From a bacterium (GTDB taxonomy: Bacteria > Patescibacteriota > Minisyncoccia > Phycocordibacterales > UBA9973), in contig JAIXRY010000006.1 of the NCBI GenBank assembly GCA_027484965.1, positions 130,101 through 194,100 of the forward strand: DNA of 64,000 bases, read 5' to 3'. The position numbers were made by a program, and so were the translations under genes. Below the pieces are notes generated by a model that saw nothing but the letters and a program-made list of their open reading frames with translations, was not told where the DNA came from and ran no database searches. Positions within the stretch are counted from its first letter, which is position 1. Every line of letters starts with the position of its first letter. Below are positions 32,001 to 60,177 of this stretch, in pieces.

Positions 32001-32577
32001 CAAAATCAACAGGTACTACAGAGTATATGTCTATATTGTTTTTATCCTTTTCTTTCTCAACTCTAACCGGCAGTGAAAATAAATAAAATTGTTTTGATAC
32101 TAATTTTACTACTTCTTTTTCCTCAGTATTTTGTTTAATTTCTATATCTTCTTCCGTTTCAACTACTGCTTCTTCTAATACCTCAAAATCAAAACGACCA
32201 AAACGTAGTATGGTCTCTTTAGTGAAAGTATCATTTTTAGCTTTGCTATACACTTCATCTATTTGTAAAGCAAGATTTTTTTCTAATTTGTATTGATCAG
32301 CTATTTCCTCAGTAACATCTTTAGGGTCTGTGTTGTAATAGCAGTCGAGATTAACAATTTCTTTTAAGTTACCATCTATATCTCCATTAATAAGACTAGG
32401 TAAAGAGAAGTATTTTTGTGGTAATTTAACATCAATTGCAGTACCTCTATTAAAACCAGTTGGTTTTGTAAGACTAAGATATCCTAGACAATATTTAATA
32501 TACGAATTAAGTGAGAAGTTCATAATGATAATTATAGCAAAAAAAACCCTAAAGATGGAGTAGAAAGAACGACTCAC
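29008..32577 (-). CDS. superfamily-1 (Upf1/DNA2-like) helicase with long coiled-coil insertion, fused to C-terminal DUF559 endonuclease-like domain
   Basis: Walker A IIQGPPGTGKSETISN, Walker B VVFDEASQ ~430 aa later, motif YRSPMELIGFSN (AAA_12), C-terminal GFKIDFVATN...AIECDGPTHF...ESAGWSFFRIGYSEW (DUF559/Vsr-like fold). Confidence 0.75.
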   Translation of the reverse strand: MSRSFYSIFRVFFAIIIIMNFSLNSYIKYCLGYLSLTKPTGFNRGTAIDVKLPQKYFSLPSLINGDIDGNLKEIVNLDCYYNTDPKDVTEEIADQYKLEKNLALQIDEVYSKAKNDTFTKETILRFGRFDFEVLEEAVVETEEDIEIKQNTEEKEVVKLVSKQFYLFSLPVRVEKEKDKNNIDIYSVVPVDFEVRLNLPPLYEIFRTYKKEDLVYEFLNDYVKLESDGGFSIPISSEQIFLDLWHMLKAKLRLTDATFNEESFNLEDLRLTLAPRANFFLVEDLTKLSREKEELLEDTSLSGWFSEEGLNVNSDVCEEKALYFPFPYDKFQRATTTLLGNKASIIQGPPGTGKSETISNIISHLAVNKNKVLFVSQKPQALRVVKDKLKTLEVPLLFGYIPSVKFEQVNDEEADTISSQLSSLDTYGAYKGISKDSVNLDDFTQNINNSLTKRDKVISLQRSVYEIEEKKKEYIFLEGLPDISEQTILTNFTDDLYRLYLKTEEKISQNNKFLKDLESISKRYSLEKEIFSDYTFSDLIKTVIVDVKKTGFDRSFNLGRYINNFSRKLRLKEHLSRLPKEIYDEINSVLSKDISRHNAIKELEELLGFCTYWELIIENEKLEKSLVEIETNLELSKDEISNLFSFLKDKSLTVSELLEKLSERITLNHNQNNLINEISKLKKEVTDKNQISRKEIISQYLSAIIEDNINKNASQVKIWRKLQELQKAFKKSKKAFKTFDKLKNDPSNFETILNIVPIWIMDLDDASRLIPLVANLFDYVVFDEASQCNIAYTIPSMYRAKKAIFVGDPEQMRDSTVMFKSNQAFDQLASRYKVPESLQIKPTGTAVQSVLDIAKTRFGIPKILQYHYRSPMELIGFSNKYFYEPKGKRLIALNNKYLTYQDTNRIMVIHNIENTGVGEISDNTNYAEALKALSLYQEMVNDPKYEGKTFGVLTFFNDQAELIRKVFEDNRIKEGDRLKISVIEGIQGDEKDIIIYSFVIRDPSQKRQYRPLTGETGDIQADINAGRVNVAFSRAKLQVHCILSLPVEKVPSGIWIKKYLEYVRDNGEVSASKLILKKFDSYFEEEFYHLLKKKLGKGYTIQNQVESCGFKIDFVATNLSTGKQLAIECDGPTHFKDHIDEAYGIYVESDIQRQRVLESAGWSFFRIGYSEWIESDDNKELIVNNIKNNL

Positions 32578-39370: not shown

Positions 39371-40015
39371 CAAGCAATTTTTATAACGACATTTATGAGT
39401 AATCATTAAACCACTATCTTCAATCTTTCTAGCACCTAGAGCTTCTGCTTTAAAAATATTTTCGGTTATACCACCAGAAAAATGCATACCTACTCCATCA
39501 ATACTTAATATAGCTTTCAGTGTCCAGAACAACTTTGCTGTTTTTAGACGAACCCTATTACATATACAAGGATTCAGTATATAAGCATAACTAAATTGCT
39601 GTGTGGGATACCAATCTCCCAATTGTGAATTATAATTTGTTTCGTGATGAGCAACCACTTTGTTTCTATGCAATATAATTATTTCTGCATCTTTTCTTAG
39701 TTTATCAAGTTGTAATTCCATCTTCCTTCTTTTTTCCTTGTCTTTAATTTTTACTATAAGAGAGTGTAATGTATTTCCATTACGGTCTTTATCTAGTATG
39801 TGATAGAAGGTTATAAGAGTGTCTCTTGAAAACCTATCAATTTGCTCTATATAAAATCTTTCCGATATGTCTCGTATCTTAGTGTTTTTTCTAATAAAAA
39901 CTATATGCTCTATGTTATCTTCAATTCTATTCAGACATTGAAAAATATGATCAGTGATTTGACGTAAAACTATTGGACTATTTTGTCCTTCTTTGGTAGG
40001 AGTTATTAAGGGCAT
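39362..40015 (-). CDS. HEPN-like (Abi_2/AbiD-F-type) protein, putative
   Basis: RNKVVAHH fits the HEPN Rx4-6H motif; operon-terminal gene. Confidence 0.35.
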   Translation of the reverse strand: MPLITPTKEGQNSPIVLRQITDHIFQCLNRIEDNIEHIVFIRKNTKIRDISERFYIEQIDRFSRDTLITFYHILDKDRNGNTLHSLIVKIKDKEKRRKMELQLDKLRKDAEIIILHRNKVVAHHETNYNSQLGDWYPTQQFSYAYILNPCICNRVRLKTAKLFWTLKAILSIDGVGMHFSGGITENIFKAEALGARKIEDSGLMITHKCRYKNCLLK

Positions 40016-41569: not shown

Positions 41570-43009
41570 TTAATATCTATCATTTTGATCTTTAATATAT
41601 TTTTTTTGTTTTATGTATTCGATCAAAAGATCACAGAATAAAGATTCCTCATTGCCTTCTGCTACAGTAATAAAATCTGAACCTGTTATATCTTGACTTA
41701 TTGCATATTTATTCCAAGTTATAATAGGATTTGATTCACTAGGCATTTGTACACCAAAAGACTTTAGCATTGTAACTATATATTTACCATAAGGCATTCG
41801 TTTGCCTGTTTTTAATTTAGATTTTTTTATAATTTCTAATTTTTCTAAAAAAACATTAGTATTTGAAAAACTGTGTATAGCTATTTTTATCGCAATGTTA
41901 AATATTTTTTGAAAATTATCAGCAAAATGATCTTCATAATAACTACCTTTTTTTAATTCAGTTAATTGATACCTAGTTGCTTTTAATAATGATCTTAAAT
42001 TTACGATCTCATAGTTAACTGATTGTGAAAATATATACCAAAGAAAAAGCTTGATGTATCCACTATCTGCAATTGCTGGGGATAAATTAGGCTCCTCATT
42101 TTTTATATTCCTAGATATCTCTTCAACCATACTTAATACTGCTTTTTTATTGTCAAAATAAAATGGACTTATAGTAAAAAATTTATCCATATAACCCGAG
42201 AAATCAGTATTGGATCCGTATCTATGATGAAAAAAATGTTTTAAATTTGTATAATCTCCAACTATAATTATTAAATCAAAGCCGAATTTGTTTTCGTGTT
42301 CTTTTTCAAAATAAGAAGATAATATATTTAATATTCTAAATACGTGTTCTGGGTCTAATCTATCTAAATCATCTAAAATTAAGATACTTTTTTTATCTTG
42401 TTTTTCTAGTTTAATTTTTTCCCGTAATAAATGACTAAAAAAATCCGTCTCAGAGATATTTTTCTTTTTTACCTCTTTAATATATTCTTCAACTAAAGCT
42501 TTTTCTCCACCGATATAATCTTCCTTAAACTTTTGAAATTTTTTATCTAATTCAAGTAAATCTTTTAAAGATTTGCCTAATTTTCCAACAAAACCAGATA
42601 TTGGATTTGGAATCATACCAGAAAAAGATTCGCCTAAAGATAGTGATTGTTGAAGTGCAGAATTTAATGAAATATTATCTTTAGCCCAAGAATAAAAAAG
42701 GAGGGATGATTCTTCAATTCCATTGACTTCATTCGTTGTAAAAATATTATTATTCTTTTTCATAAGTTCAACAAGAATATCGTATTTAATCAATTCCAAA
42801 ATATCTTCATTACTACTAATCTGATAGTTGATTGGGTACAAGTGAAAAACTTCATAATTATTTTTTTTCAATTCAAAAAATTCATTTAAAAAATATGTTT
42901 TACCCACACCAAATTGACCAGAAAAAAATATTCTGGAATTTTCTTCCATATTTAAAAAGGATTCAAAATCACCCAATACACTATCAATCGGTATCTTAAT
43001 ATTTGACAT
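41570..43009 (-). CDS. KAP-family P-loop NTPase
   Basis: Walker A SGQFGVGKTYFLNEF and hallmark Walker B ILILDDLDRLDPEHVF. Confidence 0.7.
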   Translation of the reverse strand: MSNIKIPIDSVLGDFESFLNMEENSRIFFSGQFGVGKTYFLNEFFELKKNNYEVFHLYPINYQISSNEDILELIKYDILVELMKKNNNIFTTNEVNGIEESSLLFYSWAKDNISLNSALQQSLSLGESFSGMIPNPISGFVGKLGKSLKDLLELDKKFQKFKEDYIGGEKALVEEYIKEVKKKNISETDFFSHLLREKIKLEKQDKKSILILDDLDRLDPEHVFRILNILSSYFEKEHENKFGFDLIIIVGDYTNLKHFFHHRYGSNTDFSGYMDKFFTISPFYFDNKKAVLSMVEEISRNIKNEEPNLSPAIADSGYIKLFLWYIFSQSVNYEIVNLRSLLKATRYQLTELKKGSYYEDHFADNFQKIFNIAIKIAIHSFSNTNVFLEKLEIIKKSKLKTGKRMPYGKYIVTMLKSFGVQMPSESNPIITWNKYAISQDITGSDFITVAEGNEESLFCDLLIEYIKQKKYIKDQNDRY

Positions 43010-46706: not shown

Positions 46707-46982
46707 ATGAAAAAATATTTAAAATTTATTGAAGAAAATAGTATTGAAGATAATGAAATACTACTCTACCCCATAACATCAGAAGACGTGAACTTGCAGA
46801 CAAAAAAAATATTAGATGAAAAATATCTATTTAGAATCTACATAGCATTGTCTTCTATGGAAGAGTTTAGAGAAAGAATAAATAACATTATTGATGAAGC
46901 TATCAAAATTGCCCTAAATGACAAAGAGCCTCATTGGGTAGAGATTGATGATGTATATAAGAATTATCAAATCGATGATTGA
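46707..46982 (+). CDS. hypothetical protein (91 aa)
   Basis: ORF. Confidence 0.35.
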   Translation: MKKYLKFIEENSIEDNEILLYPITSEDVNLQTKKILDEKYLFRIYIALSSMEEFRERINNIIDEAIKIALNDKEPHWVEIDDVYKNYQIDD

Positions 46983-48093
46983 TACAATATGTCTTTTAAT
47001 ACCCAAAGGTTATATGACTTACCTTTCAGAAATTGCTAGCTGGGAAATGTATTCCAAAACAGATCAGTATGAAAAATATGTTCGTAATCCAAGTAAGGCA
47101 CAAAAAGAAACTGGAAAATACTTTCCACGACTTACTGGATACAAACGCAAGTTCTCACAAGAAGCGAATGTGCGAATGGAGTTTTCAGTACCTAAACTTC
47201 TTTACCTCAACAATCTAGAAGAAATGGAAGATAAAGACTTTCCAGAAGTAATTGAAGCCCTGCAGGACCGACTAAAAACTATGGGTGTAATAGTTACAAA
47301 ATTAGTACTTGAAAATGCTTCTGTAAGCTCGATCCACTTCTCAAAGAACATAGTGCTTCAGGACGGCTATACAGCAAATCATTTGATTTCAGAAATGAAT
47401 AAGGTGGACTTAAGAAAGAGTTTTGATTTTGCTAAGACCAGATTTATGAATGACGGACAGAGTTTATACGCTCATACTACCTCACATCAAATGGTTATCT
47501 ATGACAAAGTATCTGATTTGAATAAGGATAAGAAACGAGCGATAGACAAGGATCAAACACTATATCAAAGAAGTTTATTTGCAGAACTAATAAAGGAAGA
47601 TGAGCAGCAAGAAATAATACGCTTTGAAATACGCTTGAGCCAAAAGCAGAAAATGAACAAGGTATTAGAGGGTTTTGGGTATCAGAAAAATCCAACTTTC
47701 AGACAAGTATTCAATACTGAAATGAGTAAAAAGGTAGTAACTGATTACTGGAAAAAACTTATCAAAGAACGTAATCTTGGACTATTTTCTTTGTCAGTAA
47801 GTATTAAAGATATATTACAAACTTTGTTTCTAGCTAATAAAAAACTCAAACCGAAGCAAGCGATATACCTACTTGGATTGTTTATGCTTGCAAAAGATGA
47901 GAATGGAATGAGACAACTAAGAACTATTGTTTCAAAGCGATCCCACGATAGGACTTGGTATAGGATTGTTAAAGATATGCAGGAAGCTAGCGAGCTTATA
48001 ACCAAGAATAAGCTACGAGATTGGGTTACGCAGATAGATAAAGCGTTAGAAGATTATAAACCATATAAAATTAAAAACTATGAAAAACAATAA
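46945..48093 (+). CDS. hypothetical protein (possibly mobile-element replication/recombination function); likely true start at 47014 (MTYLSEIAS, AAAGG RBS)
   Basis: ORF; context in mobile-element remnant. Confidence 0.45.
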   Translation: MMMYIRIIKSMIDTICLLIPKGYMTYLSEIASWEMYSKTDQYEKYVRNPSKAQKETGKYFPRLTGYKRKFSQEANVRMEFSVPKLLYLNNLEEMEDKDFPEVIEALQDRLKTMGVIVTKLVLENASVSSIHFSKNIVLQDGYTANHLISEMNKVDLRKSFDFAKTRFMNDGQSLYAHTTSHQMVIYDKVSDLNKDKKRAIDKDQTLYQRSLFAELIKEDEQQEIIRFEIRLSQKQKMNKVLEGFGYQKNPTFRQVFNTEMSKKVVTDYWKKLIKERNLGLFSLSVSIKDILQTLFLANKKLKPKQAIYLLGLFMLAKDENGMRQLRTIVSKRSHDRTWYRIVKDMQEASELITKNKLRDWVTQIDKALEDYKPYKIKNYEKQ

Positions 48094-48604
48094 ACAAAAA
48101 TTAAGTGCAACAAAACAGTTTCAAAAAGGTATAAATATAGCTATGGCAAAATACTACAATCAAGCCATTTCAGATAATGTAAAGCGTGCTTTTGAACAAA
48201 AAAGAAGGAACGGAGAATGGATAGGTATTGCACCTATTGGATACCTAAATACTTCTATAAATAAAAAAACACAAACACAGAAAACAATAATTATTGATAA
48301 AAAGAGAGGTCCTATAATACAAAAAATGTTTGAATTATTGGCTAGCGGTAAAGAAACAATTAAAACAATAAAAGAGGAAGCATCAAGAATGGGATTAAAG
48401 GGTCGTAATGGTTCAAAATTATCAATGGCTTGTGTTAATAATATTCTCAAAGATTCTTTTTATTGTGGTATAGCTGTATCAAAAAAATATGGTTCTTATA
48501 AACACAAGTATCCAAACCTCATTAGTAAAGAGCTTTTTGATAGATGTCAGTCTGTTCTATCTAAAACAATTCTCTACTCAAGACAAAGTTGCTATGTAAA
48601 GTAG
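48080..48604 (+). pseudogene. serine recombinase fragment (recombinase domain only, no catalytic N-terminal domain)
   Basis: AKYYNQAISDNVKRAFEQKRRNGEWIG...ILKDSFYCGIAVSKKYGSYKHKYPNLISKELFDRCQ is a diverged copy of residues ~125-260 of the recombinase at 50443..52026. Confidence 0.6.
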
Positions 48605-48819: not shown

Positions 48820-49803
48820 ATGAAAGATAAAAAACAAAAAAAGTATACATTGGTTTCTTTATTTGCTGGATGTGGCGGATTGGATTTAGGTTTTACTGGC
48901 GGATTTGAAGTGTTAGGTAAAAAATATACAAAGAGAAATTTTGATTTAATATGGGCTAATGATTTTGAAAAAAATGCTTGTTTAACTTTCTCAAAATATT
49001 TTGATAAAGAAATTGTTTGTGCCGATATAGTAGAGGTTTTGAAAGGAAATTACCCAGATTTATTTTCGTCTCGTATGCCTAAAAAAGCTGACGTTGTTAT
49101 AGGTGGATTTCCTTGCCAAGATTTCAGTTTAGCTGGTAAGAGAAGAGGTTTTAATTCAAAAAGAGGAAATCTATATCAAAGTATGGTTGAAACTGTTAAA
49201 AGATTAGAACCAGCCCTATTTATCGCTGAAAATGTTAAGGGGCTTTTGAGTATGAATGGTGGAGATGCAATTGAAACAATTAAAAAAGATTTTGCCGAGC
49301 TTGGTTACAATGTCGAATATAAACTTTTTCACGTAGCGGATTACGGAGTACCTCAAAATAGAGAGCGAGTTATTATTGTTGGTACAAGTAAAAAGAAGAA
49401 AATGCCACCATTTGTTTTTCCAAAACCAACACATACTAAAGATAAATGGGTTTCAGTCGGAGAAGCTATTAAAGACTTAGAAAAAATTGAAGAAAATAAT
49501 TTCCCTAACCATAGTTGGTCAAGAGCGAAAATGTTTGAAGGTACTCAAGGAAACTCAATAATTAAAAAAGATAAAATAGCTCCGACAATGAGAGCTGAAC
49601 ATCACGGGAACATAGAGTGGCATTGGAATAAAAAGAGAAGATTATCCGCAAGAGAAGCAGCAAGAATACAAACATTTCCAGATAACTTTATCTTTTATCC
49701 TTCTACCTCAAGTGCTTATAAGCAAATTGGTAATGCAGTCCCTCCTGTTTTTGGTTGGCATATAGCTAAAGCAGTTGAAAATTATTTAACTAAGAATATA
49801 TAA
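48820..49803 (+). CDS. DNA (cytosine-5)-methyltransferase
   Basis: LFAGCGGLDLGF (motif I), GGFPCQDFSLAGKR (IV), ENVKGL (VI), QNRERV (VIII), YKQIGNAV (X). Confidence 0.9.
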   Translation: MKDKKQKKYTLVSLFAGCGGLDLGFTGGFEVLGKKYTKRNFDLIWANDFEKNACLTFSKYFDKEIVCADIVEVLKGNYPDLFSSRMPKKADVVIGGFPCQDFSLAGKRRGFNSKRGNLYQSMVETVKRLEPALFIAENVKGLLSMNGGDAIETIKKDFAELGYNVEYKLFHVADYGVPQNRERVIIVGTSKKKKMPPFVFPKPTHTKDKWVSVGEAIKDLEKIEENNFPNHSWSRAKMFEGTQGNSIIKKDKIAPTMRAEHHGNIEWHWNKKRRLSAREAARIQTFPDNFIFYPSTSSAYKQIGNAVPPVFGWHIAKAVENYLTKNI

Positions 49804-49807
49804 ATTT

Positions 49808-50440
49808 ATGAGTGCTGATTTAACTACACTTTTTACAGACAGTAAAACAATAAAGAAAATACAAGAAAAATTACCTGATCTTTTTCAGCTTGCTGAACTA
49901 GATAATTCAAGAGACGGGAAACTTGGTATGGAAATTGGCTCAGCAAGGGAACGTATAATTATCGCTCTTTTAATATATAAGTTTGGTGAATTAAATGTTA
50001 AAACTAATATAGCTATTACATTTGCTGAGACTGATGCTATTGTTTTTGAAAAACCTGTATCAATAAAAACTATAACTGGAAAGAAAATTAACGGAGTAAA
50101 ACTTATTTGGACTGTAGATGCTCAAAAAGCTTTATCATTCAGTCAAAATTATATACCGAGTTGTGATATTTTATTAGTACAAATAAATTGGAATAGTAAA
50201 GGATTTTTTTACTTATTTCCTAAAAAAGCACAAGAGGATGTATTAACTAAAATTAGTAGATCTGAATACATTAAACTTCCAAAAGCAGGAACTAACCCCC
50301 GAGGTGTTGAATTGTCTGGTAAAGCAATTGAAGAACTATCTAAACATCCTCAAACTATGAAAATTGAGATTGATTGGAAAAGAAGTGATATTAAACATAA
50401 TCCATATGAAAGATGGGTTGAACATTGGCTTGAAGAATAA
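49808..50440 (+). CDS. putative cognate type II restriction endonuclease
   Basis: Immediately downstream of the C5-MTase in the same orientation; no recognisable family motif. Confidence 0.4.
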   Translation: MSADLTTLFTDSKTIKKIQEKLPDLFQLAELDNSRDGKLGMEIGSARERIIIALLIYKFGELNVKTNIAITFAETDAIVFEKPVSIKTITGKKINGVKLIWTVDAQKALSFSQNYIPSCDILLVQINWNSKGFFYLFPKKAQEDVLTKISRSEYIKLPKAGTNPRGVELSGKAIEELSKHPQTMKIEIDWKRSDIKHNPYERWVEHWLEE

Positions 50441-50442
50441 TT

Positions 50443-52026
50443 ATGAAAGCAATAAATATATCAAGAGTATCAACAGAGGAACAAAAAGATAATTCGCCAC
50501 TCGCTCAAGAGAACAGGTTAATTAACTATTGCAAAAGCAAATCTTTTGAGATAATAAAAAATTATAACTTCCAAGAAAGTGCTTACAAGGAAAAGAGAGA
50601 TGAGTTCGATGTTATAGTTGAACATATCCAAGAAGTAGCTAAAAAAGAAAAAATAGCTGTATGTTTTGATAAAGTAGACCGTCTTTCACGAAGTGTGTTT
50701 GATAAAAGAGTTGGAATGCTTTACGAAATGGCTTTAGCAGACAAAATAGAACTTCACTTTGTTTCAGACGGACAGATTATCAATAATCAAATGTCTGCTG
50801 TTGAAAAATTCCAATTTGGTATGAGTCTAGGATTAGCTAAATACTACTCTGACGCTATTGGTGATAATGTAAAAAGAGCATTTGAACAGAAACGAAGGAA
50901 CGGCGAGTGGACAGGAGCGGTCCGTTTAGGTTATTTGAATGTGCAACTAGACGCAGAAAAAAGATTACGTAAGGATATTATTATCGATCCAGAACGAGGA
51001 CATTTGATACAAAAAATGTTTGAGTTGTACGCAACGGGTCAATATTCACTTGAAACTATAAGAAACAAGATGACCGAGCTTGGATTACAAACCCTCAAAG
51101 GAAATAGTTTATCAAAAAGCGGAGTTGAAAATATCCTAAAGGATAGCTTTTACTGTGGAATAGCAATTACAAAAAAGTATGGTTCTTATGCTCATAAATA
51201 CCCTAGATTGATTACAAGAGAACTCTTTGATAAGTGCCAACAGATACGCAATAAACGCAATAATCATAAATCAAAAGCACTCACAAAAAAACAGTATATT
51301 TTTGGTGATGGTTTCTTAAAATGCCATAATTGTGGTTGTTCAATTACCGCAGAAAATCATAAGGGTATAAATTACTATTCTTGTACTAATGCTAAAGGCA
51401 TTTGTAAAAGAGTATATATCACAGAAAAGGACCTTTTGAAGCACATATACGAGGTTTTAGAGCGATTTGAGGGTATTACAGAAGAGGCACAGAATCAACT
51501 CGTATCAGAACTAAGAAAGAACACAGAAAGTGAGGTTGTATTCCATAAAGCACAAATAAGTCGCATACAGACCGATTACAACAATTTGAAAGCAAAACAG
51601 GACAGATTACTTGATGCTTATATTGACCAGAGTATTACTAAGGACATCTATGACAAAAAGCATCAAGAGTATCAAGACCAAATACAAGTACTTGAAATTG
51701 AAATGTCTGAACACTCAAAAGCAGATTACGATTACCAAACTACTGTTGCTACAGTGCTTTCTGTAGCACGCAGAGCAAAAACAATATTTGATAATAGTTC
51801 TGAACCTGCTAGAAAAAGACAGTTTTTGAATTACATACTTCAGAACCCGACTGTAAACGAAAAGAAGCTATATTTTACAATAGCTTCTCCGTTTAATTTG
51901 GTACTAGAATTAGCTAGTACCCCTAACTGGCTCGCTTTGACAGACGATTTCCGAACAATAGATTGGGCAAAAGAATATCCATATCCAACAATAAGTTTGG
52001 GTGAAATTAAAGCTCTGGTTTGTTAA
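50443..52026 (+). CDS. large serine recombinase
   Basis: MKAINISRVSTEEQ catalytic motif, recombinase domain, CHNCGC...C zinc ribbon; 527 aa. Confidence 0.8.
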   Translation: MKAINISRVSTEEQKDNSPLAQENRLINYCKSKSFEIIKNYNFQESAYKEKRDEFDVIVEHIQEVAKKEKIAVCFDKVDRLSRSVFDKRVGMLYEMALADKIELHFVSDGQIINNQMSAVEKFQFGMSLGLAKYYSDAIGDNVKRAFEQKRRNGEWTGAVRLGYLNVQLDAEKRLRKDIIIDPERGHLIQKMFELYATGQYSLETIRNKMTELGLQTLKGNSLSKSGVENILKDSFYCGIAITKKYGSYAHKYPRLITRELFDKCQQIRNKRNNHKSKALTKKQYIFGDGFLKCHNCGCSITAENHKGINYYSCTNAKGICKRVYITEKDLLKHIYEVLERFEGITEEAQNQLVSELRKNTESEVVFHKAQISRIQTDYNNLKAKQDRLLDAYIDQSITKDIYDKKHQEYQDQIQVLEIEMSEHSKADYDYQTTVATVLSVARRAKTIFDNSSEPARKRQFLNYILQNPTVNEKKLYFTIASPFNLVLELASTPNWLALTDDFRTIDWAKEYPYPTISLGEIKALVC

Positions 52027-52050: not shown

Positions 52051-52542
52051 ATGACAAAAAATACTAAAACAAACCCACACGGAGCAAACGCTACATTGCT
52101 TGATCCACGTCAGCAATACTGTTGGGATTATTATATAGATATACGCTCAGATACCTTCTCAAACGCCTTACAATCGGCAATAAAGGCTGGTTACAGTGCA
52201 AACTCAGCTACTCACATAACAAGCCAGAAGTGGTTTGTAGAAAAGGTGCGAAAATTAGGGTTTTTAAGCAAAGCTGAACAGATAATAGAAGATATTCTAG
52301 ATATGCCGGTTATGACTGCTGAGTGGCAAGGTACAGGCAAAGAGAGACGACAATACGTTGTTACTGACGCCTCACTGATAAAGATTAAACAAGATACTGC
52401 GAAGTTTATCTGCGAGCGTCTTGGTAAGAATGAAGGATACACTACCAAGCAAGAACTATATCATTCCGGTAAACTGGATTTAGTTACTGGAAATAAAGCG
52501 TTAGATGATTTGTTTGAGGAAGAAGAAATTACCAATCTCTAG
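52051..52542 (+). CDS. phage terminase small subunit-like protein
   Basis: LLDPRQQYCWDYYIDIRSDTFSNALQSAIKAGYSANSA matches the Terminase_2 HTH pattern (L.p.q..Fc..Y....n.t.Aa..AGYS). Confidence 0.55.
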   Translation: MTKNTKTNPHGANATLLDPRQQYCWDYYIDIRSDTFSNALQSAIKAGYSANSATHITSQKWFVEKVRKLGFLSKAEQIIEDILDMPVMTAEWQGTGKERRQYVVTDASLIKIKQDTAKFICERLGKNEGYTTKQELYHSGKLDLVTGNKALDDLFEEEEITNL

Positions 52543-54598
52543 CAGGAGGATTTCTAAATAGATTTATTGCCTCTTTGTCCTTTTCGTTCATAAGAGCAAT
52601 CTCTTCGTCGGTAATGTCTTTTACAAGAGCCTCAATTTCTTCTATTGGATACAAGGGCTCAATACCTTTTTTGTCTAATCTATTATAGTTACCATTTGTA
52701 GACATCACTCGCCCCACAAACCCTTTTAATAAGCTTAGAAGACCCTCTCTGGTGCTAATAAGATTTTTTATATATTCTTTTACTTTATCTTCTCCCTCCC
52801 ATTCTTTCCAGCGATATAATGCGAACACAAGAGATTTTTCCTCGTGGAGTTTATTATCACTAGCAAGCTTGTTGATATCTGCCAATGATATTACTTTGAG
52901 TTTTTCTGCCTCCTCAGCTGTGATCAATGGTTCTTCTGTACGCTGTTGATTATTTTGTTGGTCTATAAGCATTGCTACAAATCTAGTAGAAGGGTAAAAG
53001 GTTTTACTCGTCTTTACTAATTCTTCAAGAATAGCAAAACGTTGCTCTTTAACTAGGTGTTTTATTGCGTGGTAAGTAATGCGTGAAGACTGGGTTTCTA
53101 TGTCATCAAAATCAAACATTGCACTTCGTTCATCTCCAATATCTTTTTCTAAATCCCATAGTGTAGAGATAACAACCTTCATTTTTGTTTCGTCCAATGT
53201 ATCTACTCTATCAAGGATTTTAACGAGCATAGGACGTAGACGTTTATCTTTCGCTAGTTCAAGTATCTTTTCTGAAAAAACTGCCTTATCTCCAAAGCTT
53301 TCTGCGAGAGCATTGCCTTCTACTTCTGATATAGCACCTTCTGGGATACCTAGCTGGAAATAAAAACCAAAGCGTTCAGCTACACACATACGTCGCTCAC
53401 GTTTCCATATCTGATCCCAATCACTGCCATAGTGTGCATTATCAAGATTAGGAAAGAGTACCTCGCAAATACCTTGCATTGGTTTCCTTAAGTCTACAGG
53501 CAATGCGTCTATGAGCTCTTTAAGTTTGGCTTGTAGATTTTTCTTATTGTTCTCTCCATAATCGGTAAGGCCGTGTGATCCTAGAAACAAATTAGGGTTT
53601 GCAGAAATACCAGAGTATAGCGTAGGTGCAAATACTCGTACGGCCTCAATCGCCATAAAATCAATCTGGTTTACATCTTCTTTCTCTACGATTGACCAGT
53701 TAAGGCGAAGAGAACTTATATAACGCTTTATATCTCTAACAGTTTTGAATGGCTTTTGAAAACCCTTATATTGCAAATCGCCCCATCTCTTCTCATCATT
53801 TCCTTCAAGCTTTACCTCTGTGTATACGCCTTTTATGGTCTCATCTAAATCAGCAAAAAGTATTTTTTGTAGTCCTTGTTCATCTGGCATTGGAAGAGTA
53901 AAAGATACTTGTATTATCTTTTTAAGATACTCCTCGCCAGAGCCTTCAGTGTTTAATTTTTCAGCAACTTTCTCTCTGTCATAACAAAGCACAAACACAG
54001 TATTTGGAAAGTTAGCTGTCATTTTAACTAGTTTCATTACAAGTCTAGTTTCTTCTGTATCAAGACGGTCTATATCGTCTATAACGATAACAACTTTCTT
54101 ACCGAGATGTTTGAATAAATCATCTACGTCTCTTCGCTCTTCTTCAAGAGTTTTTTCTCCTCCTTTTAACTTAAATAAATCATTTGCCTTTAGATTTACT
54201 AAACCTCCAAGAACTGTAATCTCTGGGCTAAAAGCAAGCTCACTTTTCTTTGTAAGCTTAGAGACAATTGACCTTACTTTTTTTACCTTATCTTTATCTT
54301 CAATAAATGGTGCTATTTTGGCAAGAAGTGTAGAAAAGAAATCTGTTATAAGTTCATTTTGTCCAGAAAAGTTCCAAGGGTTAAAGTTTATAAAAATCAG
54401 ATTGGGATCATCTTTTATTTCTTTAAGTGCAAGATTTATAAATGATGTTTTACCAGAACCCCAGACACCCTCAATACCGATAACAAAACTTTCTTTACCT
54501 TGAAAAGTGGCAATGAGCTCAGCTACTTTTTTAGCGAGTGGAGCTCTACGAAGTTTATCGTCGTCCTTATCTTCAATTGGGTAATCTGGCATTATCAT
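52529..54598 (-). CDS. KAP-family P-loop NTPase
   Basis: IGIEGVWGSGKTSFINL Walker A and VVIVIDDIDRLDTEE Walker B hallmark. Confidence 0.75.
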   Translation of the reverse strand: MIMPDYPIEDKDDDKLRRAPLAKKVAELIATFQGKESFVIGIEGVWGSGKTSFINLALKEIKDDPNLIFINFNPWNFSGQNELITDFFSTLLAKIAPFIEDKDKVKKVRSIVSKLTKKSELAFSPEITVLGGLVNLKANDLFKLKGGEKTLEEERRDVDDLFKHLGKKVVIVIDDIDRLDTEETRLVMKLVKMTANFPNTVFVLCYDREKVAEKLNTEGSGEEYLKKIIQVSFTLPMPDEQGLQKILFADLDETIKGVYTEVKLEGNDEKRWGDLQYKGFQKPFKTVRDIKRYISSLRLNWSIVEKEDVNQIDFMAIEAVRVFAPTLYSGISANPNLFLGSHGLTDYGENNKKNLQAKLKELIDALPVDLRKPMQGICEVLFPNLDNAHYGSDWDQIWKRERRMCVAERFGFYFQLGIPEGAISEVEGNALAESFGDKAVFSEKILELAKDKRLRPMLVKILDRVDTLDETKMKVVISTLWDLEKDIGDERSAMFDFDDIETQSSRITYHAIKHLVKEQRFAILEELVKTSKTFYPSTRFVAMLIDQQNNQQRTEEPLITAEEAEKLKVISLADINKLASDNKLHEEKSLVFALYRWKEWEGEDKVKEYIKNLISTREGLLSLLKGFVGRVMSTNGNYNRLDKKGIEPLYPIEEIEALVKDITDEEIALMNEKDKEAINLFRNPPARDW

Positions 54599-54606
54599 AA
54601 TGGGTA

Positions 54607-55752
54607 TTATTTTTCTTGTTCTTCAAACTCATCATATGAGCCGATTTTAGCAAAATCAATTTTGTATTTGCCGTCTGGAAGTTTATAAATAACAACAGCG
54701 TCAAGACCTATGTCTTCTAGTTTTTTATAAGTAACAACTTCTCCTTGTGGAATAGATAAGATATCTCTCAATATCCATTTACCGAGTTCTTTATTTGATT
54801 TAGACATAAGGGCTTTACCACCAGCTTGGCAGATTTTGGCACTCATAGTTTGTTTATTTGGTAACATAAGTTCAAAAGGAGTTTCTCTGTCTGGAAAGAA
54901 GTCTGGAAACTTTCTATGTATCCACGCTGGAACAGGTATATATGCCTCATCTAAATCTCTTTTTCTTCCTGCGGCGTTCCATTGATTAAGTCCACTACCT
55001 ACACCAACTTCTTTTTCTTCTCCAGATCTAGTTGAATACAGTGGTAAAAATACGTGGGGGTACTCAGTTTCAATTGGAGAAAACGCAAGATCTGCGATAG
55101 CAGGTAATTCTATAGACGTCAGTCCAGCTAAAACATCAAAAGGGTCTTCAAGTATTTTTATTGAAACTTCTGTAACTGTATCTTTTATGATAAATCTCTT
55201 AAACAGAGTGTTCTTTGAAAAATTAAAAGAATACTCCTCGTGCTTATCTTTGAAAGAAACTGAGGTCTTACTTTCGTCTAGTATTTTAATACTCGCTGTA
55301 TCAATAAGACGCATTGGTGTTTCTAGCACGTGCATTTTTCCTTTAGTTCTTGTAACACAGTGATACATCATCTGTTCAAGGGCGTAGATCTTCATTGTAG
55401 TTTCAATTCTCTCATTTCTTAAACGAGCAATTTCCTGTACAAGCCCTTTCATATCAAAGTCCTTAAAAGAAGAGCTTTTTGCATTAAACTCAGCAACTTT
55501 TTCCATTGTATTACCACGTTTTTCGCCAAAAGTTTTTATTCCAAAACCAATACCGTTTAATGAGGCGTCTGCAGATGTACAGTCTCTTGAGAGATTGTCA
55601 GCATTGAAACTTTTACAGAACAGATTTTCAGCTACTCTATAATCAAGATATGGTTCATCACTCTCAGAATATAGACGAGAAAGAGAGCCCATAATGGCTA
55701 ACATTTTTTTGTAGTATTCTTTATTCTCTTTACTTTGGCTATCTATAAACAT
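54607..55752 (-). CDS. putative type II restriction endonuclease (partner of HhaI-like MTase)
   Basis: Sits between MTase and KAP NTPase with 6- and 8-nt gaps; no recognisable motif. Confidence 0.4.
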   Translation of the reverse strand: MFIDSQSKENKEYYKKMLAIMGSLSRLYSESDEPYLDYRVAENLFCKSFNADNLSRDCTSADASLNGIGFGIKTFGEKRGNTMEKVAEFNAKSSSFKDFDMKGLVQEIARLRNERIETTMKIYALEQMMYHCVTRTKGKMHVLETPMRLIDTASIKILDESKTSVSFKDKHEEYSFNFSKNTLFKRFIIKDTVTEVSIKILEDPFDVLAGLTSIELPAIADLAFSPIETEYPHVFLPLYSTRSGEEKEVGVGSGLNQWNAAGRKRDLDEAYIPVPAWIHRKFPDFFPDRETPFELMLPNKQTMSAKICQAGGKALMSKSNKELGKWILRDILSIPQGEVVTYKKLEDIGLDAVVIYKLPDGKYKIDFAKIGSYDEFEEQEK

Positions 55753-55758
55753 ATAGAT

Positions 55759-56712
55759 TTAATTCATTGCCTTTACAATGTTCTTAGCTACTTTTTCAAT
55801 CACAGTAACAGTAACAGAGTTGCCGGCTTGTTTGTATAATTTACTATCAGATAGATTTTTTGGGATTTTGTATTTTTTAGGAAAGCCTTGAGCGTTCAAA
55901 CACTCTTTTGGTGTTAGTTTTCTAATACCTTTTTTATCTAAAATAAGAGGCACATTATGTCCACCAGTACCCATATTTGCAGTTAATGTTGGAACAACAC
56001 CTCTTTTATTCTCACGAACATATTGTCTACGCCACTGATAAACTGTATCTTTTTTTGTAATACTTTCCTTTAGTTTAGGGTAGAGAGCAGAGTTTTTATA
56101 GTAGTATTTTTCCGGCACATCAGTCTCTAAAATATCAGCAATGGTAACATTTAATTTTGTCGGTTTTGGAAACTCAAAATTATCTATAAACTTTTTATTC
56201 TTGAAACCAACGATATAAATACGCTCACGATTTTGTGGCACATTACCATAGTCAGCACTATTCATAACTTGAGATTTTATATGATAACCAAGAGCAGTTA
56301 GGGCGTCCTCAATAACCTTAAAAGTTTTCCCTCCGTCGTGGTTTTTTAAGTTTTTTACATTCTCCAAAAGAAAACCCATAGGTTTTTTTTCTTTAAGTAT
56401 TTTTACTATATTCAAAAACTGGTTTCCTCTCTCAGTGTCTTCAAATCCTTTTCTGTATCCGGCTATAGAAAAAGGCTGACAAGGAAATCCTGCCAAAAGA
56501 AAATCAAAATTAGGTAGACTTGAAGGTTTTATAGCACCAATATCTCCAACAGTTAGAGGTACAGTATTAAAATTAAGATCAAAAGTTATCTTACAAGCAG
56601 GCTCAATATCGTTTGAAAAAACAGTCTGAAAACCAGCGTTTTCAAATCCAAGTCTTATTCCTCCTATGCCAGCATAAAGATCTAATGTCTTTAGGTGTAC
56701 CTTATTCTTCAT
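55759..56712 (-). CDS. DNA (cytosine-5)-methyltransferase, M.HhaI-like
   Basis: LDLYAGIGGIRLGF, LLAGFPCQPFSIAGYRKGFEDTERGNQF (close to M.HhaI FPCQAFSISGKQKGFEDSRG), ENVKNL, QNRERI, YKQAGNSV. Confidence 0.9.
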   Translation of the reverse strand: MKNKVHLKTLDLYAGIGGIRLGFENAGFQTVFSNDIEPACKITFDLNFNTVPLTVGDIGAIKPSSLPNFDFLLAGFPCQPFSIAGYRKGFEDTERGNQFLNIVKILKEKKPMGFLLENVKNLKNHDGGKTFKVIEDALTALGYHIKSQVMNSADYGNVPQNRERIYIVGFKNKKFIDNFEFPKPTKLNVTIADILETDVPEKYYYKNSALYPKLKESITKKDTVYQWRRQYVRENKRGVVPTLTANMGTGGHNVPLILDKKGIRKLTPKECLNAQGFPKKYKIPKNLSDSKLYKQAGNSVTVTVIEKVAKNIVKAMN

Positions 56713-56791: not shown

Positions 56792-57163
56792 CTAGTCAAT
56801 TATGTTTTTGCTCATCATCTCAGACAAAGCCTTAAGTTTTTGATAGAAAGGGCTCAAATATCGTTCGTATCTTTCTTTATCAAACTTACTGCACATATCA
56901 TCTAAGGCACTGTCTAATTTTGGTTTCATTTGCTTGAGTACCCAAGAGGCATATTCTTCTTTTCCTTTTTCAATGTTGCTAAAGCGTGCTCTCACTAATA
57001 AATCATAGATAACAATACCAGATATAACAGCAAACGGTGTAAGGGCTATAGTCTTAAAACTCCACTGATCAGCCGGTGGTAAATGGGTAAAAAAGTATTG
57101 TAAAAAAATAAAAGACGCTACAACAAGTATTAAATTATATTTTCTATAAAAACTATTTTGCAT
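56792..57163 (-). CDS. small membrane protein (123 aa)
   Basis: Two TM segments. Confidence 0.4.
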   Translation of the reverse strand: MQNSFYRKYNLILVVASFIFLQYFFTHLPPADQWSFKTIALTPFAVISGIVIYDLLVRARFSNIEKGKEEYASWVLKQMKPKLDSALDDMCSKFDKERYERYLSPFYQKLKALSEMMSKNIID

Positions 57164-58545: not shown

Positions 58546-60117
58546 ATGAAAGGCTCAAACATAAACAATTGTGTTTTATATTGCCGAGTATCTTCAAAAG
58601 AACAAGAAGAAACTGGGTACTCTCTTCCTTCACAGGAAAAGCTCTTAAAAGAATATGCAGAACGTAGAAATAATTTTACTGTTGTAAAAGTTTTCTCTGT
58701 TGCTGAAAGTGCTAGTGGCTCAAAGCAAAGAAAAGTGTTTGCTGAAATGATGTCATTTATATCAAAGCACGATATAAAAAATCTAGTAGTAGAAAAAGTT
58801 GATCGCCTTACTCGCAACCTAAAAGAGGCTGTATTTGCTAATGATTGGTTAGATGAAGACAAGGAAAGAAAAATACATTTCGTAAAACAAAACCTAGTAT
58901 TACACGTAGGTGCTAAGTCAGACGAAAAGTTTCGCTGGGATATTGAAATTGTTTTAGCTAAGAAGTTTATATCAAACCTCTCAGAAGAAGTACGAAAGGG
59001 TCAAGCTGAAAAATTAGCTCAAGGTTGGCTACCTACAACACCTCCAATTGGATACAAAACTATTGGAGAAAAAGGGCACAAGATACACGTAATAGATACT
59101 AATTTCTCTGGTTTTATTAAGAAGGCTTTTGAAATGTATGCTAGTGGTAATTATTCAATGGAGGCACTGAGACAACAACTCTACAAAGAGGGCTTTAGAA
59201 CTCGTAATGGTAATAAACCAGCAAAAAGTGCAATTGAAAATCTACTTAACGAAGTATTTTATTATGGTGCTATGAAATGGAACGGAGTACTTTATAAGGA
59301 CGGCAAACAAGAGCCAATAATTACAAAAGAATTATTTGATAAAGCTCAAGAGGTACGCCAGAGACATCTAGCACCAACTTACAGCCGGCATAACTTCCAA
59401 TTTAAGAAACTAATGAAGTGTGGCGAATGTAATGGCACAATCACAGCTGAAGTACAGAAAGGCATAGTGTACTACCATTGTAGCCACTATAACGATTGCA
59501 CTCAAAAACCATATACACCAGAGAAAGAGATTGAAGAACAACTCTTTGGAGTATTCAAGTTTTTTGAGAACATAACACCAGAAGAGGCTGAGGCTATTAA
59601 GGAGAAAATTAAAGCAAACCACGCTCAAGAAATTACTTACAAGGAAAATACTCTTAAATCTCTCAACGCTCGCTATTTACAGCTACAGAGCCGATTAGAC
59701 ATACTCTATAACGACAGATTAGATCAGAAGATTACTACAGATAGCTGGGAGAAGAAACAGAGCGAAATAAATAAAGAACAGGAAAATATCCTTGAACAAA
59801 TTGAGAGAATTAAAAATGTTGAGACGAAGTACTTTGAGATATGGTTGAACATCTTAGACCTTGCACACAGAGCAAAAGAAATATATGAAAAAAGAAGTCC
59901 GGAAGAACGCCGAACACTTTTATCTCATATTTTTCTGAACTTAACTTTAACTGACAAAAAAGTCATACCTACATTGAAGAAACCAGTTGAAGTGCTTGCT
60001 CAACGTGTCCAAGAGAAAATAGACGCTCAAAAGATTTTCGAACAGAAGAAAACCGTTGCTATAAAACGACAAAAGAGCTCTTACGAGCCCCTTTGTCCTT
60101 CTTTGCTCCCCCGGTAG
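58546..60117 (+). CDS. large serine recombinase (integrase) overlapping the 3' end of tRNA-Asn
   Basis: VLYCRVSSKEQEETGYSLPSQ catalytic motif; recombinase domain; CGECNG...C zinc ribbon; last 12 nt overlap tRNA. Confidence 0.8.
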   Translation: MKGSNINNCVLYCRVSSKEQEETGYSLPSQEKLLKEYAERRNNFTVVKVFSVAESASGSKQRKVFAEMMSFISKHDIKNLVVEKVDRLTRNLKEAVFANDWLDEDKERKIHFVKQNLVLHVGAKSDEKFRWDIEIVLAKKFISNLSEEVRKGQAEKLAQGWLPTTPPIGYKTIGEKGHKIHVIDTNFSGFIKKAFEMYASGNYSMEALRQQLYKEGFRTRNGNKPAKSAIENLLNEVFYYGAMKWNGVLYKDGKQEPIITKELFDKAQEVRQRHLAPTYSRHNFQFKKLMKCGECNGTITAEVQKGIVYYHCSHYNDCTQKPYTPEKEIEEQLFGVFKFFENITPEEAEAIKEKIKANHAQEITYKENTLKSLNARYLQLQSRLDILYNDRLDQKITTDSWEKKQSEINKEQENILEQIERIKNVETKYFEIWLNILDLAHRAKEIYEKRSPEERRTLLSHIFLNLTLTDKKVIPTLKKPVEVLAQRVQEKIDAQKIFEQKKTVAIKRQKSSYEPLCPSLLPR

Positions 60118-60177
60118 GGATCGAACCTACGACCAATCGATTAACAGTCGATTGCTCTACCGCTGAGCTACAGGGGA
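60106..60177 (-). tRNA. tRNA-Asn (anticodon GUU)
   Basis: Sense strand UCCCCUGUAGCUCAGCGGUAGAGCAAUCGACUGUUAAUCGAUUGGUCGUAGGUUCGAUCCCUACCGGGGGAG: cloverleaf with U1-A72 as in E. coli tRNA-Asn, anticodon loop CUGUUAA, T-loop UUCGAUC. Confidence 0.88.

What the first reader, a model, noticed from the sequence alone, without database searches (positions are those of the whole stretch)
52529..56712. HhaI-like C5-methyltransferase + putative endonuclease co-operonic with a KAP-family NTPase
- M.HhaI-like MTase (FPCQPFSIAGYRKGFEDTERG), a 381-aa motif-less protein, and a 689-aa KAP NTPase (GVWGSGKTS, IDDIDRL) lie on one strand.
- Gaps are 6 and 8 nt.
- This suggests a three-component R-M-associated system in which a KAP NTPase accompanies or replaces a conventional REase function.
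- A second KAP NTPase 10 kb upstream reinforces that this family is defence-linked here.
Basis: partly seen in the sequence, partly recalled or inferred. Interest (0 to 1): 0.55.

Follow-up and report, generated by a model that had tools for sequence, protein, structure and literature searches.

The report
Restriction-modification pair beside PifA-like defence gene
The three genes are real, but they are two separate and already-known kinds of anti-phage defence (a complete two-gene restriction-modification system and a PifA-like "abortive infection" NTPase) that ended up back to back in a mobile defence island, not a new three-part restriction system.

Summary
The three minus-strand ORFs, the quoted motifs and the 6- and 8-nt gaps are all present. 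The 381-aa protein is not motif-less. It belongs to a large Type II restriction endonuclease family, with a PD-(D/E)XK-fold N-terminal half and an NgoAVII-type B3-like DNA-binding C-terminal half. In 84 other loci this REase travels with a co-diverging homologue of the C5-MTase. It is never followed by a KAP gene (0 of 85 loci). The 689-aa KAP NTPase is a full-length homologue of F-plasmid PifA, the phage T7 exclusion protein. Its closest relatives (72-83% identity) have no C5/B3 R-M next to them. Homology breakpoints fall inside the 8-nt gap. The closest R-M relative (L170) matches the window on both sides of the KAP gene but carries an unrelated 528-aa gene in that slot. About one third of close KAP relatives do sit beside restriction genes, but these are unrelated types (Type I, several Type II, methyl-directed), which is defence-island behaviour. 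The region is rich in recombinase genes, abuts tRNA-Asn and holds a second R-M pair of the ThaI family. Pooled site avoidance suggests GCNGC rather than HhaI's GCGC. Verdict: an ordinary defence island; low interest.

The parts
55759..56712 (-). C5 cytosine DNA methyltransferase, 317 aa (M subunit of the Type II R-M)
   Evidence: PF00145 1.2e-87 over the full length; TIGR00675 9.6e-98; the best solved relative is M.HhaI, 1.8e-62 over aa 6-317. Motifs visible in the sequence: DLYAGIGG, FPCQPFS, LLENVKNL, QNRERIY, GNSVTV. The target-recognition region (about aa 190-270) aligns poorly with M.HhaI.
54607..55752 (-). Type II restriction endonuclease, 381 aa: N-terminal PD-(D/E)XK-fold nuclease half and C-terminal NgoAVII-type B3-like DNA-binding half
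54599..54606 (-). 8-nt junction between the R-M module and the KAP module
   Evidence: R-M-only loci L004/L005/L006/L170 match the window down to 54606-54608. KAP-only loci L001/L171/L172/L173 match from 54599-54607 downwards. No terminator-like hairpin lies here. There is a weak promoter-like site at 54659->54631.
52529..54598 (-). PifA-like KAP-family P-loop NTPase, 689 aa (single-gene abortive-infection-type defence module)
   Evidence: PF07693 1.7e-53; PADLOC PifA PDLC02361 3.3e-96 covering positions 6-715 of 720. BLASTP against the F-type plasmid 'phage T7 exclusion protein': 24% identity over aa 5-650 vs 14-707, E 6e-36. Walker A GSGKT and Walker B DDIDR are invariant in 24 homologues. 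The model shows a P-loop core plus an all-helical C-terminal region; best folds are RdrA, ORC/Cdc6 and STAND; no nuclease domain. No TM helix.
56792..57163 (-). 123-aa ORF with two predicted TM helices, upstream of the MTase; function unknown
   Evidence: Hydropathy peaks of 2.1 and 1.8. Conserved and syntenic in L170 (window 57281->54608 = L170 1-2682). Absent from the other R-M loci (homology starts at about 56738). No Pfam, PADLOC or PHROG family.
52051..52542 (+). 163-aa convergent ORF whose 3' end overlaps the KAP stop; the conserved right flank of the variable slot
   Evidence: Weak Terminase_2 / phrog_51 N-terminal match (2.5e-4; 5.7e-4). Window 52531->51921 = L170 4308-4916 at 81% nt identity.
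50443..52026 (+). Large serine recombinase, 527 aa
   Evidence: Resolvase 9.7e-18, Recombinase 4.3e-15, Zn_ribbon_recom 1.6e-5. 71% nt identity to a recombinase on the KAP-carrying contig L171.
58546..60117 (+). Large serine recombinase, 523 aa; its 3' end overlaps tRNA-Asn
   Evidence: Resolvase 3.5e-19, Recombinase 1.3e-14, Zn_ribbon_recom 1.4e-7. About 52% aa identity to a recombinase beside the R-M pair in L008.
60105..60177 (-). tRNA-Asn (GTT), probable edge or integration target of the mobile region
   Evidence: ARAGORN; Rfam tRNA 70.8 bits.
48820..50440 (+). Second, independent Type II R-M pair: C5-MTase (48820..49803) and ThaI-family REase (49808..50440)
   Evidence: PF00145 4.6e-75; PF15514 ThaI 3.4e-83; PADLOC MTase_II 6e-101 and REase_II 1.6e-72.

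Best explanation
Two independent defence modules lie end to end on the minus strand, inside a recombinase-rich, probably mobile defence island next to tRNA-Asn. Module 1 is an ordinary, self-sufficient two-gene Type II restriction-modification system. The C5-methyltransferase marks host DNA at its site, which is predicted to be GCNGC rather than HhaI's GCGC. The 381-aa endonuclease reads the unmethylated site with an NgoAVII-type B3-like C-terminal domain and cuts with a PD-(D/E)XK-fold N-terminal domain. No NTPase is needed. Module 2 is a single-gene PifA-like KAP P-loop NTPase. By analogy with F-plasmid PifA, it would sense a phage product and use an NTP-dependent switch or oligomerisation to shut down the infected cell (abortive infection). 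The 8-nt spacing and the lack of a terminator mean the KAP gene is probably co-transcribed with the R-M genes here. That is a local consequence of which gene occupies a variable slot, not a sign of a shared mechanism. Shown here: the gene identities, the fold assignments, the independent distribution of the modules, the junction position and the slot swap. Inferred: GCNGC specificity, the catalytic residues (candidates E42, D62, K73), co-transcription, and the abortive-infection mode of the KAP protein.
For: REase identity and architecture. R-M pair is self-contained: a related C5-MTase (36-94% identity, tracking REase divergence) is present in 61 of 61 REase loci with at least 1 kb of upstream sequence, and KAP in 0 of 84 (0 of 48 with at least 2.2 kb downstream). 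The only recurrent extra genes are Vsr (24 loci), an HTH protein (10) and serine recombinases (11); no NTPase recurs. KAP is PifA-type. F pifA sits next to pifC, with no R-M. The closest KAP relatives (83, 80, 79, 72% identity) have their own upstream intergenic regions and no C5 MTase or NgoFVII_C REase as a neighbour. None of 80 genome loci has this MTase or REase within 8 kb. No neighbour family is shared by more than 5 of 84 KAP loci. Junction: R-M homology ends at 54606-54608 and KAP homology starts at 54599-54607. Slot swap: L170 (REase 96% aa identity) matches the window on both flanks but has an unrelated 528-aa gene in place of KAP. Island context: two full serine recombinases, a recombinase fragment, tRNA-Asn and a second R-M pair. 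The KAP model has no nuclease domain. PifA as a stand-alone abortive-infection system: PMC8594841.
Against: There is no terminator between the REase and KAP genes, and the 8-nt gap looks operonic. Among 21 close KAP relatives (at least 38% identity), 7 of the 21 assessable loci counting the window have restriction or modification genes as near neighbours. In window, L013, L018, L030 and L011 the order is R-M genes then KAP on one strand, so some non-random attraction of KAP genes to the 3' end of R-M clusters cannot be excluded. Nothing here was tested experimentally. Identity to F PifA is only 24%. GCNGC specificity rests on site avoidance alone.
Confidence: 0.8

Rival explanations
1. [not shown]
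For: The R protein carries an NgoAVII-type B3-like domain. CglI and NgoAVII are M+R+N systems with exactly this gene logic (PMC4267653, PMC4267654, PMC5861437). The spacing is tight and there is no terminator.
Confidence: 0.03
2. Facultative functional coupling. The PifA-like NTPase would be a co-transcribed second line of defence, or a guard of R-M systems, in the way PrrC is embedded in and controlled by the EcoprrI Type I R-M (from my own knowledge, not tested here). It would preferentially insert at the 3' end of R-M operons of any type.
For: R-M genes then KAP on one strand occurs in window, L013, L018, L030 and, with one gene between, L011. The R-M systems involved are unrelated to one another. 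R-M lies upstream of KAP in about 6 cases and downstream in about 1. The gaps are 2-178 nt.
Against: Two thirds of close relatives have no restriction neighbour, including the four closest found with exact contexts. The partners range from Type I to a methyl-directed enzyme that has no MTase (L009), which argues against any physical partnership. Same-strand upstream neighbours are the local norm (14 of 20 loci). Other neighbours are different defence candidates (PDC-S11, PDC-M51A). The sample is small.
Confidence: 0.12
3. The KAP NTPase is not a defence protein at all. It would be a mobile-element or housekeeping NTPase whose similarity to PifA reflects only a shared fold.
For: Only 24% identity to F PifA. 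There is no effector domain in the model. PifA's own natural role has been questioned (PMC8594841).
Against: The similarity is collinear over about 650 residues, beyond the P-loop domain. Neighbours in other genomes are repeatedly defence genes: Type I, II and IIM restriction genes, PDC-S11, PDC-M51A, and AbiEii within 7 kb. Distribution is patchy across phyla and on recombinase-bearing contigs.
Confidence: 0.05

Closest known systems
PifA of the E. coli F plasmid (phage T7 exclusion; founding bacterial member of the KAP NTPase family)
   Same: Full-length collinear homology (aa 5-650 vs 14-707). KAP P-loop domain with intact Walker A and B motifs. Similar size (689 vs 741 aa). A single-gene module carried on mobile DNA.
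   Different: Only 24% identity. There is no pifC-like repressor gene next to it. Here it abuts an R-M operon. The host is a low-GC lineage, and the nearest relatives come from Patescibacteria/CPR MAGs. The phage trigger is unknown.
[quoted passage not shown]
M.HhaI (GCGC C5-methyltransferase)
   Same: The best solved relative across the whole length (1.8e-62), and all catalytic motifs are conserved.
   Different: The target-recognition region is poorly conserved. Pooled site avoidance points to GCNGC and not GCGC.
PrrC anticodon nuclease embedded in the EcoprrI Type I R-M locus (an abortive-infection NTPase coupled to an R-M; from my own knowledge)
   Same: A P-loop abortive-infection-type protein is encoded inside or next to an R-M operon.
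   Different: PrrC is conserved with, and physically regulated by, its R-M. Here the KAP gene and the R-M pair are inherited independently, and the slot is occupied by another gene in a close relative.
Defence islands (clustering of unrelated defence systems on mobile DNA)
   Same: Within about 12 kb there are two R-M pairs, a PifA-like gene, three serine-recombinase genes or fragments and a tRNA edge. KAP relatives elsewhere have varied defence neighbours.
   Different: Nothing essential differs. This is a typical example, probably in a CPR-like genome.

Membership tests
C5 cytosine DNA methyltransferase (PF00145 / Dcm superfamily) | Full-length profile match above the curated cut-off | tested here: met
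   PF00145 294.9 bits (cut-off 22), positions 2-324 of 324; TIGR00675 327.8 bits (cut-off 100.65).
C5 cytosine DNA methyltransferase (PF00145 / Dcm superfamily) | Catalytic motifs I (FxGxG), IV (PCQ, with the catalytic Cys), VI (ENV), VIII (QxRxR) and X (GNxV) | tested here: met
   DLYAGIGG, FPCQPFS, LLENVKNL, QNRERIY and GNSVTV read directly from the translation and aligned to M.HhaI.
M.HhaI isospecific enzymes (GCGC) | Conserved target-recognition domain, and GCGC as the protected or avoided site | tested here: not met
   The TRD segment aligns poorly. GCGC is not specifically depleted in 84 loci carrying this R-M (ratio to GC-matched control 0.87 and 1.01), whereas GCNGC ranks first (0.65 and 0.66). 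This evidence is indirect.
Type II restriction-modification system (two-gene) | REase and cognate MTase adjacent and co-inherited across genomes | tested here: met
   A related MTase is present in 61 of 61 loci with enough sequence. Its identity falls in step with that of the REase. Several gene orders are seen (tandem and convergent).
Type II restriction-modification system (two-gene) | Site-specific, NTP-independent cleavage of unmethylated DNA | not testable with these tools
   This needs enzyme assays.
PD-(D/E)XK restriction endonucleases | Alpha/beta core fold shared with solved PD-(D/E)XK REases | tested here: met
PD-(D/E)XK restriction endonucleases | Catalytic D...(D/E)xK signature | tested here: inconclusive
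   The family-invariant residues E42, D62, K73 (in G71-I72-K73) and E88 are candidates. The middle acidic residue of the motif is not obvious, and no structural superposition of active sites was possible.
CglI / NgoAVII-type ATP-dependent R+N(H) restriction enzymes | [quoted passage not shown] | tested here: not met
   No Pfam RE_NgoFVII/PLD hit. Full-length R.NgoAVII 4rct aligns over only 136 residues, the B3 domain.
CglI / NgoAVII-type ATP-dependent R+N(H) restriction enzymes | [quoted passage not shown] | tested here: met
KAP-family P-loop NTPases (PF07693) | KAP P-loop domain above the cut-off, with Walker A and B motifs | tested here: met
   182.3 bits (cut-off 20), positions 1-287 of 293. 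G46, G48, K49, T50 and D173, D174, D176 are invariant in 24 homologues.
KAP-family P-loop NTPases (PF07693) | Transmembrane helices inserted in the P-loop domain (described for many KAP members; from my own knowledge) | tested here: not met
   The maximum 19-residue Kyte-Doolittle hydropathy is 1.14, and the only low-confidence insert is at aa 118-146. This feature is not universal in bacterial members.
PifA-type phage exclusion proteins | Full-length collinear homology to F-plasmid PifA | tested here: met
   PADLOC PifA 3.3e-96, positions 6-715 of 720. BLASTP against the annotated 'phage T7 exclusion protein': 24% identity, E 6e-36, aa 5-650 vs 14-707.
PifA-type phage exclusion proteins | Abortive-infection phenotype triggered by a phage protein | not testable with these tools
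   This needs phage challenge in a tractable host.
R-M-embedded abortive-infection guard (PrrC/EcoprrI-like) | The abortive-infection gene is conserved together with one particular R-M system | tested here: not met
   0 of 85 REase loci have KAP, and 0 of 80 KAP loci have this R-M. The adjacent R-M types elsewhere are unrelated to one another.

The most novel reading that the evidence does not exclude
The position just 3' of R-M operons is a preferred, gene-exact exchange slot for second-line defence genes. PifA-like KAP NTPases, and the unrelated 528-aa orphan gene found in the same slot in L170, would be alternative occupants, transcribed by read-through from the R-M promoter. This would give a co-regulated restriction-plus-abortive-infection unit, possibly with the NTPase responding when restriction fails or is inhibited.
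Probability: 0.1. Interest if true: 0.5.

Novelty: new member of a known kind. Interest (0 to 1): 0.2.

Why it matters
As it stands, this is a routine annotation result: a defence island with two Type II R-M pairs and a PifA-like gene, probably in a CPR-like genome. Three by-products have modest value. (1) A very large REase family (more than 4,600 sequences) combines a PD-(D/E)XK-fold nuclease with an NgoAVII-type B3-like reader and works as a plain two-gene system. This shows the B3 reader has been paired with two different nuclease folds. I found no paper describing this family. (2) A testable specificity prediction (GCNGC) comes from pooled site avoidance. (3) A clean two-allele slot swap nominates the 528-aa orphan protein of L170 as a candidate defence gene. 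If the mild bias of KAP genes towards the 3' end of R-M clusters proved real, it would bear on how layered defences are assembled and co-regulated.

Tried and rejected
1. Sequence search of the REase and the KAP protein against solved structures: no usable hit, so predicted structures were needed. 2. Site avoidance in the 64-kb window alone: inconclusive. GCNGC is at 0.57 and GCGC at 0.76, but CATG (0.48) and CCWGG (0.46) are equally depleted. Only pooling 84 loci gave a ranked signal. 3. Search for att-like repeats of the tRNA-Asn end: only a T-rich 14-mer at 39982-39995 (E 0.03), not convincing. Serine recombinases are not expected to leave long repeats. 4. Repeats flanking the KAP cassette or the R-M module: only short AT-rich chance-level matches. 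5. Viral/proviral contig scan for more KAP loci: only distant or partial relatives, no use for the census. 6. My first linkage screen used only the window's C5-MTase and REase as probes, so it missed other R-M types next to KAP relatives. 7. Literature search for a GCNGC enzyme with a B3-like domain: nothing found. 8. Rfam scan of 44-64 kb: only the tRNA. 9. Look-up of the window's own record by exact protein: the proteins are in the collection (NCBI, one 238,858-bp contig), but no name, accession or contig DNA was retrievable.
Full report
OBSERVATION. They are separated by 6 and 8 nt, and the quoted peptide strings are present. All three are real genes. The first matches the C5 DNA methylase profile over its full length (PF00145 1.2e-87; TIGR00675 9.6e-98), and its best solved relative is M.HhaI (1.8e-62, aa 6-317). 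The third matches KAP_NTPase (PF07693 1.7e-53). The middle protein is not motif-less. It matches a full-length Type II REase profile (PADLOC PDLC03479, 1.5e-98, aa 9-376) and the Pfam NgoFVII C-terminal B3-like domain (2.5e-11, aa 247-357).

I collected 84 other loci that encode this REase at 44-89% identity. A related C5-MTase was present in all 61 loci with at least 1 kb of upstream sequence. Its identity (36-94%) falls in step with that of the REase, and the pair occurs in tandem and convergent arrangements. This is the signature of a cognate two-gene system. Clustering all ORFs in those loci found only three recurrent extra genes: Vsr (24 loci), an HTH protein (10 loci) and serine recombinases (11 loci). 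No NTPase recurred.

THE KAP PROTEIN. It matches the PADLOC PifA model across nearly the whole profile (3.3e-96, positions 6-715 of 720). It aligns collinearly with the annotated 'phage T7 exclusion protein' of F-type plasmids (24% identity, aa 5-650 vs 14-707, pairwise E 6e-36). In the F-type plasmid that gene follows pifC and has no R-M neighbour. Walker A and B residues are invariant in 24 homologues, and no transmembrane segment is predicted. An AlphaFold model (pLDDT 83) shows a P-loop core followed by an all-helical region. Its best Foldseek matches are the RADAR ATPase RdrA, ORC/Cdc6 and STAND/NLR proteins, at low TM-scores, and there is no nuclease-like domain. PifA is described as a stand-alone abortive-infection protein of the F plasmid that responds to T7 Gp1.2 and Gp10 and is thought to trigger membrane depolarisation (PMC8594841).

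ARE THE TWO LINKED? There are four lines of evidence.

(a) KAP was found in none of the 84 REase loci (0 of 48 with at least 2.2 kb downstream), nor in L170.

(b) None of 80 genome loci encoding KAP relatives has this MTase or this REase within 8 kb. The closest relatives with exact contexts (83, 80, 79 and 72% identity) have their own upstream intergenic regions and no such neighbour. No neighbour family is shared by more than 5 of 84 KAP loci.

(c) Breakpoints. R-M-only loci match the window from about 56738 (L170: 57281) down to 54606-54608, which is the REase stop codon. KAP-only loci match from 54599-54607 down to about 52530. The two modules therefore meet inside the 8-nt gap.

(d) Slot swap. 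L170 carries the nearest R-M pair (REase 96% aa, 86% nt identity). It matches the window on both sides of the KAP gene: L170 1-2682 corresponds to window 57281->54608, and L170 4308-4916 to window 52531->51921. Between those flanks it has a 528-aa gene that is unrelated to KAP (best BLASTP E 1.7, no Pfam family).

A CAVEAT FOUND LATE. My first screen probed only for the window's own MTase and REase. Neighbour clustering then revealed N4/N6 methyltransferases next to some KAP relatives, so I did a census of the 21 close relatives (at least 38% identity). Counting the window, restriction or modification genes are near neighbours in 7 of the 21 assessable loci.
- Window: Type II, C5-MTase plus the B3-domain REase.
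- L013: N4/N6 MTase plus a 589-aa nicking-type REase.
- L018: two MTases plus a weak REase match.
- L030: an MTase plus a 267-aa REase.
- L011: a complete Type I hsdM-hsdS-hsdR set, then a PDC-S11 gene, then KAP.
- L021: an 888-aa double MTase on the opposite strand.
- L009: a methyl-directed REase with no MTase.

Other neighbours are PDC-S11 (L010), two PDC-M51A-like genes (L016), a weak Cas4-like match (L023) and a large helicase (L002). Ten loci have no recognisable defence neighbour. The partners are mechanistically unrelated. One has its own translocating HsdR subunit, and one has no methyltransferase at all. This fits type-agnostic defence-island clustering, not a shared mechanism. Same-strand upstream neighbours are the local norm (14 of 20 loci). 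A mild bias remains unexplained: R-M lies upstream of KAP in about 6 cases and downstream in about 1. With this sample I cannot tell whether that bias is real.

SPECIFICITY. The catalytic core aligns well with M.HhaI, but the target-recognition segment (about aa 190-270) does not. Site avoidance in the window alone is uninformative. I pooled the 84 R-M-bearing loci (0.6 Mb) and used the KAP loci (1.16 Mb) as control. GCNGC was the most specifically depleted of 84 short palindromes (observed/expected 0.59 vs 0.95). It stayed first in both GC-matched bins (0.58 vs 0.90 and 0.60 vs 0.92). GCGC showed no specific depletion. I therefore predict GCNGC, an Fnu4HI/Bsp6I-type site, and not GCGC. This is an inference.

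CONTEXT. The locus sits in a recombinase-rich stretch. There are large serine recombinases at 50443..52026 and 58546..60117, and a recombinase fragment at 48080..48604. The 3' end of the second recombinase gene overlaps tRNA-Asn at 60105..60177. A second complete R-M pair, a C5-MTase with a ThaI-family REase, lies at 48820..50440. Relatives of both recombinases occur on contigs carrying the KAP gene (L171) or the R-M pair (L008). About 10% of loci of either kind have a serine recombinase nearby. No terminator-like hairpin separates the REase from the KAP gene, and a weak promoter-like site lies at 54659->54631. Co-transcription here is therefore plausible but untested. No repeats flank the cassette. 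The nearest KAP relatives come from Patescibacteria/CPR MAGs, and the window has about 30% GC.

VERDICT. The gene identities and the defence context are right, but the proposed three-component system is not supported. The best explanation (confidence about 0.8) is a self-sufficient Type II R-M placed next to an independently mobile PifA-like abortive-infection gene in a defence island. Both belong to known kinds. Interest is low (0.2). There is a small residual possibility (about 0.1) that the 3' end of R-M operons is a preferred exchange slot for second-line defence genes.

Noticed in passing
window 48820-50440 (+): A second complete Type II R-M pair: a C5-MTase (327 aa, PF00145 4.6e-75) followed after 4 nt by a ThaI-family REase (210 aa, PF15514 3.4e-83). 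ThaI recognises CGCG (from my own knowledge).
   Followed up: partly
window 60105-60177 (-) and 58546-60117 (+): The tRNA-Asn(GTT) gene overlaps the last 13 nt of a large serine recombinase gene. This looks like the edge or integration site of the mobile region. No convincing second att copy was found.
   Followed up: partly
L170 2724-4310 (+): A 528-aa orphan protein (no Pfam or PHROG family; only a weak PADLOC PDC-S09 match, 1e-4) occupies exactly the slot that the KAP gene fills in the window, between conserved flanks. It is a candidate defence gene by position.
   Followed up: partly
window 41570-43009 (-): The 'second KAP' (479 aa) passes the Pfam KAP threshold modestly (3.3e-11) and has weak PADLOC PDC-S20 and PifA hits. 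It is unrelated to the first KAP beyond the P-loop (BLASTP E 0.12). Its neighbours have no PADLOC hits.
   Followed up: partly
window 29008-32577 (-): A 1189-aa protein matches the candidate defence helicase/nuclease models PDC-S37 (3.6e-65), Hhe (8.4e-33) and MkoA/MkoC. This suggests further defence content about 20 kb from the finding.
   Followed up: no
window 46945-48604 (+): A 382-aa ORF of unknown function (about 75% aa identity to an ORF on the KAP-carrying contig L171) is followed by a 174-aa fragment carrying only the 'Recombinase' domain. This is probably a decayed serine-recombinase element.
   Followed up: partly
whole window: CATG (observed/expected 0.48) and CCWGG (0.46) are the most depleted short palindromes in the 64 kb. 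This hints at other active R-M specificities in this genome.
   Followed up: no
L010 4792-5727 and L011 6935-7987: PDC-S11 candidate defence genes (E about 1e-118 to 1e-123) lie one or two genes upstream of the KAP gene in two relatives (72% and 61% identity). In L011 the gene sits between a Type I R-M and KAP.
   Followed up: no
window 39982-39995 and 60092-60105: An exact 14-nt direct repeat (TTTGTCCTTCTTTG), with one copy abutting the 3' end of tRNA-Asn. It is T-rich and of borderline significance (E 0.03). It would bracket about 20 kb, but it is probably chance.
   Followed up: no
REase loci L092 and 23 others: A Vsr very-short-patch repair endonuclease gene (PF03852 2.8e-20) accompanies this R-M family in 24 of 85 loci, as is common for C5-MTase systems. 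It is absent from the window.
   Followed up: partly
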